The notes beneath the pieces were generated by a model. The model was not told where the DNA came from. It did no database searches and saw only the letters and a list, made by a program, of their open reading frames with translations. Positions 20,011 through 28,656 of a DNA stretch of 64,000 nt are shown piece by piece. Position numbers and translations under genes: made by a program. The stretch comes from Promethearchaeota archaeon. GTDB taxonomy: Archaea; Asgardarchaeota; Lokiarchaeia; Sigyniarchaeales; SOKP01. Within the stretch, counting starts at the first letter, position 1. Each line of letters starts with the position of its first letter. Location: contig JBHLOY010000011.1 of the NCBI GenBank assembly GCA_048939995.1, positions 1-64,000 of the forward strand. The letters run 5' to 3'.

Positions 20011-21768
20011 ATGTCAAATAAAATTGGAGAGGAAGATGGATTAAGACAAAAGGTATGGAAAATCATCAATTTAATACAAGCAAATCAAATATTTGTACAT
20101 TCTAAGCATCTCGAAATCAAATATGCTGATGAAGAGAGTGAAGAAGTTAAGACTAAAGTTTTACCTGAAATATTATCTCTATGTGTACTAAACGCGTTAG
20201 TACCTAATTCAGCAATGTTATTAATAGGAGGCCATGGAGGAGGTAAAACAACACTAGTAAAGCTTCTAGGTCGAATGTTTACCGGTATGCCACTAACTGA
20301 TATTGAAAATTCTATTGTAAGGGGCCATAGTGAATCGATCTTAACGGTTAACGGCTAACCACAACTTACAGAAGAAAAATTAGTTGGCACGTTAAAGTTA
20401 GGTAAATTAATGCACGACGGGGAAGAGGAGGTTGTCTGGAGACAATTTGTCACAAGCTTCTGGAAAATCATTGATGAGGTTAATAGATTAACCCCTTATT
20501 CCCAAGATATCTTATTGTCACTTCTTGCTGAAGGAACCATTAAATATTATGATGAAATAACCAACATTCAGAAATATTGCCTTTATGCTACTATTAATCC
20601 TCAGGATGTGGGTACATTTGAATTAAGCGAACCTTTCTTAGACAGATATGGGATATCAGCCCCTATTTCGATGCCAAGTAGCTCTGATTTAGAGTTAATT
20701 TTAAAAGGAAAAGATGAAAAATATAGTGGGTGGGACGAATTAATTCAAGTTCCTAGAGTGTTAACAATTGATGAGTTAATGGAAATCTGGTATTATGTCA
20801 ATAGAATACCCTTTCAAAGTGATGTTAATAATTATATTCATGCGATTGTACGAGAATTTACTCTATGTGATCGGATTGATAAAGGAAGTTCAGAAAATCT
20901 CAAGCCAAGTAAGGGATTATGCTCTGGGTGTCATTTTGATACAACACAGAATATTTGTAATAAGATAGATTCCATTTTAAGTGTTAGAGTTGCGAAGGAT
21001 TTACTAAGATATTCTAAAGCTTTAACTTGGTTAATGAGTTTAAGTAAAATTGACGTCAACATTGTAAATACAGTTGCTCCATTTGTAATTTCACATAGGG
21101 TTCTTTATTCTAGTAGGGAACTAGACAAAGCTCCTTATTGGGGCAATAAATACGAATTTTCAAAAGCTAATCTTAGTCAAATCCAAAAAAGGTTTATAAA
21201 TAGAGCGGTTTGTTACGAAATTACAAAAAAGTTTAGAGATGGAATTGGTATACCTGAAGATTTCTCAACTTTAAAAAATTATAAAAAAAATGATTTAATA
21301 GTAAAATATGATTTAATCCCCTTCGTCAATTCTGTTAAAGATAAAAATTACTCCGGTTTAGCTCAAAAAATACTAAGTGCTGCAAAAAAAGGTGACATTA
21401 AACAATTAGCTGATTTGCGAAATTATCTTATTGAAGATATAGATTTTCCAAATCGCGCCTATTTAATAAACTTATGTAACCAAGAGCTTTATAAACAAAC
21501 AGTTACGGATTATGTCTTCAAATATCTACATAAAGATGAGGTATGGGCGGACATTGCTAGTGAATTTCCTAATTTAGATAATCCAATTAAGGACGCTTTA
21601 AGTAGAAGGCAGACGAAGCAGATCAGAACTGAGGATATATTAATAGAAATAAATGTTAGTGGAACAAATGATGATTCTTTAGTTAATATTCAGTTATCTG
21701 GAGGGTCAGAAGCAATAAAATTAAGGACAATTTTAGATAATCTCAGTTATATTCAGAAGGAGGAATAA
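20011..21768 (+). CDS. MoxR-type AAA+ ATPase, spliced: join(20011..20328,20359..21768), 575 aa
   Basis: Walker A GGHGGGKT is in the upstream ORF, and Walker B IIDE plus ATINP are in the downstream ORF in the same frame. Removing the 30-nt BHB intron gives ...VRGH|PQLTEEKLVGTL... Confidence 0.9.
20329..20358 (+). other. BHB-type intron in a protein-coding gene (30 nt, ends in in-frame TAA)
   Basis: Central helix GGCC/GGCT, bulges ATA and AAC, inner helix GTGAATCG/CGGTTAAC, outer G-C pair plus TGTAAG/CTTACA. Confidence 0.88.
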
Positions 21769-25860: not shown

Positions 25861-26820
25861 TTATTCTTTTAGCATAGCTGTGATTAAAACTTCTGTTGCT
25901 TCATCTTCTGTTAAACCTTTAGCCATAAGTTCATCGAGCCATTTTTGAGGAAATCTGCCAAGAGAGGCTTCATGAGATACACTTGAAGTAGGATCTATTG
26001 CCCTAATAAATGGACGCGCTCTACAGATGGAACCCTTACCTAAAACTATCTCATTACACTCGACATGACCATTACAATATGGAGCATTTCCTTCAGTCAC
26101 ACCATACATTAATACTTCTCCTCCATCTCGGGCTGCTGCTTTCATTTTGATTAAACTACGTGCATTCTCTCCTTCCAAAAATATTGAATCTCTAATTCTG
26201 ATGGAATCTTTTCTATTCCTTCCATAAGCTTTTATCGTTGAACGGATTACACTATTCTTCATAGCATAGATATCTAACATAATTTTCACTATTCCTGGTG
26301 TTCCTTGAGTTAAATTAAAGTTATTCTCAAAGATACTATTTTCTCCAACATACATATAACCTACTGGTGCAACAAATGCACCAGAGTTTTCACCATGATA
26401 ATGAGTCTCACTATAAGTGAAGTTACAATTCTTTCCAATATAGAAATGACCAAACATTTTATGAATAAGCCCATTGGCTCTTGGAAAAGAACAATGAGCC
26501 TGTATCTTAACATCTGTATTATTTTCAGCAATAATTCTTGGAAAGATTTCTTGGACCCCAGTTTCTTTATTTACTCCAAAACATAAATGAATTGGCTCTT
26601 CATGTTTAGTTCCTTCTTTAATTATTACATCAGCTACTATTCCGTTGGCGATTTCATGTCCTTTTAAAATAATTCCATCTACTTGTTCTACACCAGTAAT
26701 TTTATTAAAATTTAAAAGCAGTTTAGCACCTTTTCCATGTCCAGGTATAAAATCTTGAATATCAATATTATAATCTTCAAGACTTTGTAAAATTTCTTTA
26801 GGATAATCGCTAGTATTCAT
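25861..26820 (-). CDS. sufB: SufB/SufD-family Fe-S scaffold (SmsB-like)
   Basis: PIHLCFG, AHCSFP, GHVECNEI, HEASLG and LMAKGLTEDEA motifs. Overlaps the sufC gene. Confidence 0.88.
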   Translation of the reverse strand: MNTSDYPKEILQSLEDYNIDIQDFIPGHGKGAKLLLNFNKITGVEQVDGIILKGHEIANGIVADVIIKEGTKHEEPIHLCFGVNKETGVQEIFPRIIAENNTDVKIQAHCSFPRANGLIHKMFGHFYIGKNCNFTYSETHYHGENSGAFVAPVGYMYVGENSIFENNFNLTQGTPGIVKIMLDIYAMKNSVIRSTIKAYGRNRKDSIRIRDSIFLEGENARSLIKMKAAARDGGEVLMYGVTEGNAPYCNGHVECNEIVLGKGSICRARPFIRAIDPTSSVSHEASLGRFPQKWLDELMAKGLTEDEATEVLITAMLKE

Positions 26821-27620
26821 GATAATCCCTCCTCTTTGAAGATTTTATCGATATATTCGTCATCAAAACATTTTCCACCGTTTTTAAATAGATTTCTTTT
26901 ACACCATTCTTTTAAACCAGCTTTAGCACAATACTTTAGCATAACATTAGGGAATTCATCAGTTAGCAATGCATCTCCTCGCCATAAAAGAGTTCCATAA
27001 TCAGCGACCATCCCAATCTCTTCGCGATGGGTGATAAGTAATATTGTAATATTTAAGGCTTTTATCTTATTGAATATATTTAAAAAATCCTCAACAATTA
27101 TAACATCAAGTCCACTATCTGGTTCATCTAAAATCAGTAATCTTGGCTTCATTGCTATTGCTGCTGCTAATTCAACTCTTTTTCTTTCTCCTCCGCTCAA
27201 TGTTTCATCAATTATTCGATTATAGTAGCGTTCGGGCTCTAAATTTACCATATTAAGCGCTATTGAAATTTGTTCTTTCAAGTTATTCTTATCCTTTATG
27301 CCTAATGAAATATATTTAGAAACCGATAACCCATCTATACGAGCTGGTTCTTGCCAGGTTAAAGTAATACCTAATTTCGCCCGTTCTGTTATACTGCTAT
27401 TTGTGATATCAATTCCATCAAAATATATTTTTCCTTGAGAGAGTTTATATGAATTTAATCCCATTATGGTATATGCTAGTGTTGATTTACCTGAGCCGTT
27501 AGGTCCAATCACGGCATGTATAGATCCCTCTCTTACTCCAAAAGATACATTATTAACGATTACACATTTTTGATCAAAAGTGGGGATTGTAACATTCTCA
27601 AGTTTTAAGAGCGTTTTCAT
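26817..27620 (-). CDS. sufC: SufC-like ABC ATPase (SmsC-like)
   Basis: GPNGSGKSTLAYTIMG, LSGGERKR and ILDEPDSGLD motifs, plus C-terminal Cys residues. Confidence 0.9.
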   Translation of the reverse strand: MKTLLKLENVTIPTFDQKCVIVNNVSFGVREGSIHAVIGPNGSGKSTLAYTIMGLNSYKLSQGKIYFDGIDITNSSITERAKLGITLTWQEPARIDGLSVSKYISLGIKDKNNLKEQISIALNMVNLEPERYYNRIIDETLSGGERKRVELAAAIAMKPRLLILDEPDSGLDVIIVEDFLNIFNKIKALNITILLITHREEIGMVADYGTLLWRGDALLTDEFPNVMLKYCAKAGLKEWCKRNLFKNGGKCFDDEYIDKIFKEEGLS

Positions 27621-27835
27621 ATCTTCTTTGTTTACAAAAGAATAAACATTTCTAATATGTAGTTTATTTATTTATAAAAGATAAAATTTGGTAATTCAAC
27701 GATTAAAAGAAATATAATAGATCAATTTTAATATTATAGGATTAACTAATAAATATAAAAAATAATTTTAGAAATAAACGAAAAACAAAAAAGAGTTGAA
27801 TACTAGCTAAAAAATCTAGAAAAGATGTGATTGCA

Positions 27836-28656
27836 TTGGTAATTAAAGAATATATTTGCGAAATAACTTTCGCAATTCGCGAAGTTTCGTAGAAGGCAAA
27901 AAAAGTAGAATAGTTATAGATGTATCAACTAGGATAAAAGAAGGCTCTACAGCAATATTAGGATTTGCAGGTATCGGTTTGATTGGCCCAATCGTTGCCA
28001 ATACATTAATAGAACAAATTCCGGACATAAAAGAGATTGGTTTTATAACTTCTGAATACTTACCACCTATAAGTGTATTTTATGATGGTGTTTTAAAACA
28101 CCCGTTTAGATTGTATTATTCTCCTCAATATAATATGATTATAGGAATTGCTGAAGTGCCTTTTCAAGTTTCAACAGCATACAATGATCTTAGTAAAACT
28201 ATTAACAATTGGTTGTTATCTGATGATGTTAAAGCAAAAGAAGTGGTAATATTTCAAGGAATTCCACAGAGAGGTATTATTGATGATTATCCTGTGTATT
28301 ATGCTGCTGAAGCAGATATGATTACAAAATTAGAAGGATACGGGCTTACTAAGGTAGAAAAGGGAATCATTGTTGGGCCCGAAGCTACCATTTTAAATGA
28401 AGCTTTAACTAATAAATTGAAAGCTTATAGTCTTTTCACACCTGTTCTGGAAATTCCTACTCCTGAGGCTGCGGCTGCAATAATTGAAGTATTAAATCAA
28501 ATCTATAACTTAAAGATAGAAACTACAAAACTAATTGAAGAAGGCAAAGAAATCAAAGCAAAAATGCTTGAGTTAGCGGAAAAAGCACAACAATTTCAAC
28601 GACAGCAGCAATTACCAGAACAACCAAAAGAAAGATATACTCAATATTTTCAATAA
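27836..28656 (+). CDS. PAC2-family proteasome assembly chaperone, spliced: join(27836..27863,27893..28656), 263 aa
   Basis: GFAGIGLIG, HPFRLY and PTPEAAA PAC2 motifs. A GTGAT SD and TTG at 27836 lie in a different frame that is joined by removing the 29-nt BHB intron (MVIKEYICEKGKKSRIVID...). Confidence 0.85.
27864..27892 (+). other. BHB-type intron in a protein-coding gene (29 nt, ends in in-frame TAG)
   Basis: Central helix GCGA/TCGT, bulges AAT and AGA, inner helix AACTT.CGC/GCGAAGTT, outer helix TTT/AGG. Confidence 0.82.

What the first reader, a model, noticed from the sequence alone, without database searches (positions are those of the whole stretch)
27864..27892. 29-nt frameshifting BHB intron at the 5' end of the PAC2 proteasome-chaperone gene
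A GTGAT SD and TTG at 27836 open MVIKEYICE..., which stops at TAG 27890-92. The BHB has central helix GCGA/TCGT, bulges AAT and AGA, inner stem AACTT.CGC/GCGAAGTT and outer helix TTT/AGG. Excising 27864-27892 joins exon 1 in frame with the PAC2 body (…ICEKGKKSRIVID…). The ORF caller hides this by using TTG 27856, which has no evident SD and reads through the intron.
Basis: partly seen in the sequence, partly recalled or inferred. Interest (0 to 1): 0.88.

Follow-up and report, generated by a model that had tools for sequence, protein, structure and literature searches.

The report
tRNA-type intron in Asgard PAC2 mRNA
A 29-base insert breaks the start of a proteasome-chaperone gene in an Asgard archaeon and has the shape that the archaeal tRNA-splicing enzyme cuts, so the mRNA very probably has to be spliced; in the papers I could search this is known for only one archaeal coding sequence (cbf5).

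Summary
Confirmed. Window 27864-27892 is a 29-nt insert in a PAC2/PbaA-family gene of a Lokiarchaeia (Promethearchaeota) genome. Of 154 distinct homologous 5' ends, 131 are uninterrupted. Of 12 possible 29-nt deletions, only the BHB-predicted cut restores the conserved Lys10. The insert recurs in independent assemblies, so it is no artefact. It is invariant at 26/29 bases across seven lineages (fourfold sites: 7/65), with changes only in loop or bulges. Two intronless sister genes carry exactly the predicted spliced junction. Seventeen other homologues hold different 30-35-nt BHB inserts 2 nt downstream, on other branches. The genome encodes a two-subunit EndA and RtcB. A motif-free census plus direct comparison found at least seven more BHB-shaped, gene-breaking inserts. 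Best reading: an EndA/RtcB-spliced mRNA intron (0.88). Caveats: no RNA data, no compensatory changes in this family, and a weak exon helix (the BHB is not the lowest-energy fold). This scan has noted such introns before in over 30 other genomes, including PAC2 cases. I found no paper reporting them in Asgard protein genes.

The parts
27827..27831 (+). Shine-Dalgarno-like GTGAT, 4 nt before the true start
   Evidence: Sequence. Similar GTGA/GGAG/GGTGA motifs precede the start in orthologues. The 16S 3' end was not found in the assembly, so pairing was not tested.
27836..27863 (+). Exon 1 (TTG start, 28 nt: MVIKEYICE plus the first base of Lys10); encodes a predicted beta-strand
   Evidence: The AlphaFold model of the intronless 92%-identical P0121 shows strand 3-7.
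27855..27857 (+). 5' arm of the weak exon helix (TTT; pairs with AGG 27894-27896)
   Evidence: It extends to 5 bp in relatives L161 and L248.
27858..27861 (+). 5' arm of the 4-bp central helix (GCGA; pairs with TCGT 27887-27890)
   Evidence: invariant in 8 sequences.
27862..27864 (+). 5' bulge AA^T; predicted cut after 27863
   Evidence: boundary fixed by homology.
27864..27892 (+). 29-nt intron (3n+2; hairpin with 8-bp inner stem and 5-nt loop); ends in the exon-1-frame stop TAG 27890-27892
   Evidence: Absent from 131 homologues, present in independent assemblies.
27891..27893 (+). 3' bulge AG^A; predicted cut after 27892
   Evidence: varies AG^A, AG^G, AT^G in relatives.
27893..28656 (+). 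Exon 2: body of the PAC2-family (PbaA/PbaB/Ta1441-like) protein, to the stop
   Evidence: Pfam PF09754, E 1.8e-30; PDB 3GAA, 3WZ2/5Y9N, 3VR0.
27856..27858 (+). TTG used by ORF callers (reads through the intron in the body frame); probably not the real start
   Evidence: No SD-like motif upstream; frame closed by TGA in the 97%-identical L163.
20329..20358 (+). Second intron of the same kind in the window: 30 nt with in-frame TAA, in the MoxR-type AAA ATPase gene
   Evidence: Exact 30-nt gap against five related loci; the BHB is the lowest-energy fold.

Best explanation
The 29 nt are an archaeal-type (bulge-helix-bulge) intron in a protein-coding mRNA. Shown: translation from TTG 27836 stops after 18 codons unless the insert is removed; removal at the BHB positions rebuilds the conserved 263-aa protein; the insert is under strong purifying selection; the cell encodes EndA (alpha and beta subunits) and RtcB. 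Inferred: the pre-mRNA adopts the BHB conformer, the (alpha-beta)2 EndA cuts after the second base of each bulge (27863/64 and 27892/93), and RtcB joins the exons to TGC GAA A|AA GGC. The intron is one of at least eight in protein genes of this genome. It was gained in one branch of the genus and then lost, or replaced by recombination, in some descendants. Other branches acquired different introns 2 nt downstream in the same exon hairpin.
For: Homology fixes the insert and its boundary: only 1 of 12 placements gives Lys10, and K is found in 117 of 131 intronless genes. The insert is present in JGI, NCBI and Logan assemblies. 26/29 positions are invariant over 7 lineages against 7/65 fourfold sites, and all changes are unpaired. 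Intronless L249 and L168 have GAA AGA GGT, exactly the BHB-spliced product of their sister L248. Seventeen homologues carry other 30-35-nt inserts at +2 nt: 14 with a full BHB, 3 with one central mismatch (49-type geometry). Their 30-nt family keeps 98% of pairs through 8 further pair types and one two-sided change. In the motif-free census, well-aligned gene-breaking inserts were 5 of 5 BHB-shaped (0.03 expected), while stop-free in-frame inserts were 0 of 8. Two EndA paralogues are present, one with a Tyr/His/Lys triad, plus RtcB. The cbf5 precedent has introns of 16-44 nt, often with relaxed motifs (PMC2738675).
Against: No transcript, cleavage or proteomic evidence. No compensatory change inside the 29-nt family, so invariance alone cannot prove the pairing. 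The BHB conformer lies 4.3-7.6 kcal/mol above the predicted minimum. The AU test does not reject a tree with the two intronless sisters outside the family (p 0.17). The substrate range of this EndA is untested.
Confidence: 0.88

Rival explanations
1. No splicing: the protein is made from the unspliced mRNA, by initiation at TTG 27856 or a downstream start, or by recoding (frameshift, or a ribosome hop from GAA 27860 to GAA 27892).
For: The TTG 27856 frame is open through the insert in most family members. A matching GAA codon lies 32 nt downstream. The hairpin is stable.
Against: No SD before 27856. The frame is closed by TGA in L163. Changes in that frame are all non-synonymous (N to T or I, F to S, E to G or stop). 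The landing codon is GGA or TGA in three relatives. A hop would drop Lys10. Exon 1 and its SD stay conserved. The next in-frame start (TTG 27979) would delete the first core strand.
Confidence: 0.06
2. An inactivating hairpin insertion (for example from template switching; TTTCGCAA 27868-75 is the reverse complement of the exon end 27856-63) that has made a pseudogene.
For: The internal inverted copy of the exon end. A second PAC2-family paralogue exists on contig C28.
Against: The body is intact and 92-97% identical across carriers whose synonymous sites are only 45-74% identical. The insert is more conserved than neutral DNA. The cut geometry matches the homology boundary. Template switching may still explain the intron's origin.
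Confidence: 0.02
3. The element is cleaved by EndA but mostly not religated, acting as an mRNA decay or attenuation signal with only leaky productive splicing.
For: Marginal predicted stability of the BHB. The cbf5 intron was proposed as a negative regulator (PMC2738675).
Against: No direct evidence. It still needs some splicing to make protein, and RtcB is present.
Confidence: 0.04
4. Assembly or sequencing artefact.
For: The genome is a metagenome assembly, and hairpins can arise as artefacts.
Against: The same insert, with lineage-specific loop and bulge changes, occurs in assemblies from different samples and pipelines.
Confidence: 0.003

Closest known systems
cbf5 pre-mRNA intron of Desulfurococcales and Sulfolobales (Watanabe 2002; Yokobori 2009, PMC2738675)
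   Same: Short intron (16-44 nt there, 29 here) inside a coding sequence; BHB-like motif, often relaxed; cut after the second base of each bulge; host with hetero-oligomeric EndA; lineage-specific loss.
   Different: Different phylum (Asgard) and gene. Here the intron lies 9 codons from the start, not in a catalytic codon. It is one of at least eight such inserts in the genome, not a single case. Two intron positions 2 nt apart occur among homologues. cbf5 splicing is experimentally shown; this one is not.
BHB intron in the 5' UTR of Haloferax volcanii HVO_1309 (Schwarz 2020, PMC7714728)
   Same: EndA-processed intron near the 5' end of an mRNA.
   Different: That intron is in the untranslated region and does not break a reading frame.
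Asgard tRNA introns (bioRxiv 10.64898/2026.10.13.758758)
   Same: Same clade and same motif; repeated gains at a limited set of positions; intron sequences not shared between loci (this intron has no copy elsewhere in the genome); splicing not yet shown in cells.
   Different: That study covers tRNA genes only ('mRNA' does not occur in its text).
IRE1-dependent HAC1/XBP1 mRNA splicing of eukaryotes (own knowledge; outlined in PMC13149111)
   Same: Protein-catalysed, spliceosome-free removal of a short intron that changes the frame, with ligation by a tRNA ligase (RtcB in animals); the target relates to proteostasis.
   Different: Unrelated nuclease and recognition motif (stem-loops, not BHB). 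No evidence of regulation here; an analogy only.
PbaA/PbaB of Pyrococcus furiosus and Ta1441 of Thermoplasma (PDB 3WZ2, 5Y9N, 3VR0, 3GAA)
   Same: Host protein family and fold (E 3.5e-39 to Ta1441; TM about 0.7-0.8).
   Different: About 20-32% identity. A chaperone or activator role of the Asgard protein is inferred, not tested.

Membership tests
Archaeal BHB (EndA-type) pre-mRNA intron | Insertion relative to uninterrupted homologues whose removal restores the conserved protein | tested here: met
Archaeal BHB (EndA-type) pre-mRNA intron | 4-bp central helix with two 3-nt bulges on opposite strands, boundaries after the second base of each bulge | tested here: met
   the BHB cut equals the homology boundary
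Archaeal BHB (EndA-type) pre-mRNA intron | Flanking helices on both sides (strict hBHBh') | tested here: inconclusive
   Inner helix good. Exon helix only U-A, U-G, U-G and outcompeted in the predicted minimum; 5 bp in L161 and L248. Fits a relaxed motif.
Archaeal BHB (EndA-type) pre-mRNA intron | Structure kept by selection (covariation) | tested here: inconclusive
   Pairs invariant, changes only unpaired, no compensatory change. The neighbouring 30-nt family shows one two-sided change; shuffles reached its covariation score in 21 of 500.
Archaeal BHB (EndA-type) pre-mRNA intron | Host encodes EndA (hetero-oligomeric for relaxed motifs) and RtcB | tested here: met
Archaeal BHB (EndA-type) pre-mRNA intron | Spliced mRNA or EndA cleavage demonstrated | not testable with these tools
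   No RNA data or assay available
Self-splicing group I/II introns or structured RNA families | Ribozyme core of hundreds of nt, or an Rfam match | tested here: not met
   29 nt long; no Rfam match at E <= 1
Mobile repeat (MITE/REP-like) | Further copies in the genome | tested here: not met
   Best other match 20/29 ungapped
Translational bypass (T4 gene 60 type) | Matched take-off and landing codons conserved, stop right after take-off | tested here: not met
   Landing codon GAA, GGA or TGA among relatives; the stop is 9 codons after take-off
PAC2 family (PF09754) | Profile match above the gathering score and PAC2/Pba fold | tested here: met
   106.8 bits against a 25.8 cut-off

The most novel reading that the evidence does not exclude
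Lokiarchaeia run a genome-wide, fast-turning-over system of endonuclease-spliced mRNA introns that land in exon hairpins resembling a tRNA anticodon arm. This marginally stable, frame-breaking intron at the start of a proteasome-chaperone gene is a regulated on/off switch, an archaeal counterpart of HAC1/XBP1 splicing. The multi-gene system alone I put near 0.85; the probability given is for the regulated switch, for which there is no direct evidence.
Probability: 0.1. Interest if true: 0.92.

Novelty: new variant of a known kind. Interest (0 to 1): 0.76.

Why it matters
Published work I could search knows one archaeal coding sequence with such an intron (cbf5) and one 5' UTR case. A Lokiarchaeia genome with at least eight in ordinary genes (metG, dnaG, MoxR, PAC2 and others) means that the closest relatives of eukaryotes probably splice mRNA routinely without a spliceosome. 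It also means their gene annotations are systematically wrong at these sites; this gene is deposited with a false N-terminus. The locus is a compact test bed for intron gain and loss, which a recent preprint calls the open problem for Asgard tRNA introns. It offers close relatives with and without the intron, an intronless allele equal to the predicted spliced product, and several unrelated introns 2 nt away in the same exon hairpin.

Tried and rejected
(1) A purely geometric genome scan for BHB plus ORF restoration gave no signal above decoys in this 30% GC genome (94 hits against 74-89), so it was replaced by a homology-based census. (2) The first census run was spoiled by N-gaps in the reference genome and was redone. 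Loosely aligned candidates remain mostly noise, so only well-aligned ones are counted. (3) An exact search for the intron in JGI metagenome contigs found nothing; carriers were found through protein look-ups. (4) No copy of the intron elsewhere in the genome, and no Rfam match. ARAGORN found only 18 tRNA genes, so tRNA introns were not compared one by one. (5) A single origin of the 29-nt family and the +2 families with no losses is rejected (AU p 6e-148). Sliding of an old intron after many losses is not excluded, and the loop cores of the 29-nt and 31/32-nt inserts look alike by eye only. (6) Precise loss in L249 and L168 is supported by bootstrap (100/100) but not by the AU test (p 0.17). 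Neighbour genes give a different tree, so recombination blurs the direction. (7) Terminator-like hits on the minus strand over the hairpin were treated as a by-product of its symmetry. (9) Searches failed on coordinates, time or a script error.

Full report
Observation. The window is contig C7, 1-64000, of a 3.75-Mb, 30% GC genome. Its relatives are recorded mostly as Promethearchaeota, that is Lokiarchaeia (some deposited labels differ). GTGAT lies at 27827-31 and TTG at 27836, and that frame stops after 18 codons at TAG 27890-92. The central helix is GCGA/TCGT, the bulges are AAT and AGA, the inner stem has 8 pairs, and the outer helix is TTT/AGG. Removing 27864-27892 gives a 263-aa ORF. The body is PAC2 family (PF09754, E 1.8e-30), closest to Ta1441, PbaA and PbaB by sequence and fold. 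A model of the intronless, 92%-identical P0121 places a beta-strand at residues 3-7, which exon 1 encodes.

Homology locates the insert without using the motif. All 27 same-genus orthologues with an intact 5' end are uninterrupted and start M-V-K/I-K-E-Y-I/V-C-x-K-G-K. Over 154 distinct 5' ends from genomes and metagenomes, 131 are uninterrupted and 23 carry an insert. Residue 10 is K in 117 of the 131, A in 13 and R in 1. Of twelve ways to delete 29 nt around the site, only the BHB-predicted one gives K. A 29-nt BHB of this class occurs at 1.7e-5 of strand positions in the genome, so the coincidence is far from chance.

It is not an artefact and not decay. The same insert is in JGI, NCBI and Logan assemblies. 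Across seven lineages whose synonymous sites are 45-74% identical to the window's, 26 of 29 intron positions are invariant, against 7 of 65 fourfold sites. The changes are two loop bases and one bulge base, and L166 adds the bulged stem base. There is no compensatory change, so the pairing is inferred from where change is tolerated. The ORF-caller frame from TTG 27856 has no SD, changes only non-synonymously and is closed by TGA in a 97%-identical relative.

Weak point. The outer helix is U-A, U-G, U-G. The predicted minimum (-14.0 kcal/mol) zips both bulges; the conformer with both bulges open is -9.7, or -6.4 with the outer helix forced. Two relatives have a 5-bp outer helix and a gap of only 2-4 kcal/mol. 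Relaxed motifs are common in cbf5 introns and are cut by hetero-oligomeric EndA (PMC2738675). This genome has two EndA paralogues, one with the Tyr/His/Lys triad and one lacking the His, which I read as (alpha-beta)2, and one RtcB. Whether this enzyme accepts the motif is untested.

History. On a codon tree without the first 14 codons, the 29-nt carriers form one clade (100/99) that also holds two intronless genes, L249 and L168, sister to carrier L248 (100/100). Their junction GAA AGA GGT is exactly what BHB splicing of L248 yields, and Arg10 occurs in no other intronless gene. This corroborates the boundary whichever way the change ran. Precise loss is the likeliest direction but is not proven: AU p is 0.17, and the neighbouring sufC/sufB-like genes give a different tree, which points to allele exchange. 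Seventeen other homologues carry unrelated 30, 31, 32 or 35-nt inserts 2 nt downstream, between codons 10 and 11. Fourteen have a full BHB (GAAA/TTTC central helix, 5-bp exon helix), and three have one central mismatch. Some are in frame without a stop, some hold a stop, and some shift the frame. The 30-nt family keeps 98% of its pairs through eight further pair types and one two-sided change (21 of 500 shuffles reach its score, so modest). These lie on other branches, and one clade of all carriers is rejected. After splicing, their exons form a 5-bp stem with a 7-nt loop, the shape of an anticodon arm. All 15 scored carriers keep both that stem and the codons TGC GAA AAA, against 2 of 129 intronless genes (kin are not independent). 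I infer a hot spot hit more than once; sliding of an older intron is not excluded.

The genome context. A geometric scan alone was uninformative. A motif-free comparison of 1,365 genes with 2.4 Mb of a related chromosome found that well-aligned gene-breaking inserts are BHB-shaped at the aligned position: 5 of 5 at the strictest cut (0.03 expected) and 6 of 8 at the next. Stop-free in-frame inserts were not (0 of 8 and 0 of 13). The six are 30-34 nt and include metG and dnaG by their motifs. The MoxR gene in this window has a 30-nt one at 20329-20358, absent from five related loci. With PAC2 that makes at least eight; the count is a floor. The reference genome has three of its own at other genes.

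Mechanism. Shown: the frame break, its exact repair by the BHB cut, selection on the insert, and the presence of the enzymes. Inferred: EndA cleavage at 27863/64 and 27892/93, RtcB ligation, and translation of the 263-aa protein from TTG 27836. Unspliced mRNA would yield an 18-residue peptide. I give this 0.88. Alternative start or recoding (0.06), cleavage with poor religation (0.04), pseudogene (0.02) and artefact (under 0.01) are weighed in the rival list. Regulation is a possibility only.

What is known. Schwarz 2020 (PMC7714728) states that cbf5 was the only other mRNA BHB intron, besides the 5' UTR case it reports. A 2026 preprint on Asgard introns covers tRNA genes only and notes that no splicing has been shown in Asgard cells. 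Six literature searches found no report of such introns in Asgard protein genes; the library lacks most subscription journals. This scan's own notes list 34 similar findings in at least 31 genomes and several PAC2 cases. I used them as leads, re-found three of this genome's (MoxR, metG, dnaG) and do not count the notes as support.

Verdict. A real and well-supported candidate mRNA intron of the archaeal tRNA type: a new variant of a known kind, awaiting RNA evidence. Interest 0.76.

Noticed in passing
window 20329-20358 (+): 30-nt BHB insert with in-frame TAA in the MoxR-type AAA ATPase gene (RGH|PQL); absent from L156-L159 and L167, which include close relatives that share the PAC2 intron.
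   Followed up: yes
G000 C6:82172(+), C11:487250(-), C17:377452(-), C17:23476(+), C23:175447(-), C38:64707(+): Six further gene-breaking 30-34-nt BHB-shaped inserts found by the motif-free census (metG and dnaG by motif; a CaiB-like CoA transferase by motif; three not named).
   Followed up: partly
G066 C1:1129379(+), 1410049(-), 1505072(+): The reference chromosome has its own 28-30-nt BHB-shaped inserts in genes that look like rpl11, a molybdopterin-binding/CinA-type protein and a prenyltransferase (names from motifs, not tested).
   Followed up: partly
L166:149-330: The first ~180 nt of this PAC2 gene, with the 29-nt intron, are about 90-95% identical to the window's clade, while the rest is about 70%: a chimeric contig, or transfer of the intron by recombination.
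   Followed up: partly
L139, L211, L216 (PAC2 5' end): 30-nt inserts that are in frame and stop-free; annotators would call a 10-residue insertion, so such introns are invisible to frameshift screens.
   Followed up: partly
window 27856-27875: TTTCGCAA inside the intron is the reverse complement of the last 8 exon bases, allowing a rival 8-bp hairpin; it may record an origin by template switching.
   Followed up: no
window 25861-27620 (-): The divergent sufC/sufB-like pair gives a tree that conflicts with the PAC2 tree, suggesting allele replacement at PAC2 in some genomes (L042, L044, L041, L046).
   Followed up: partly
window 28640-28656: The protein ends YTQYFQ, with Phe at the penultimate position where the HbYX proteasome-binding motif has Tyr.
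   Followed up: no
G000 whole genome: ARAGORN finds only 18 tRNA genes, all with introns, in a 98% complete assembly; probably more are hidden by multiple introns.
   Followed up: no
G000 C28:458719-459372 (L376): Second PAC2-family paralogue; its 5' region was read, but no intron test was run.
   Followed up: no
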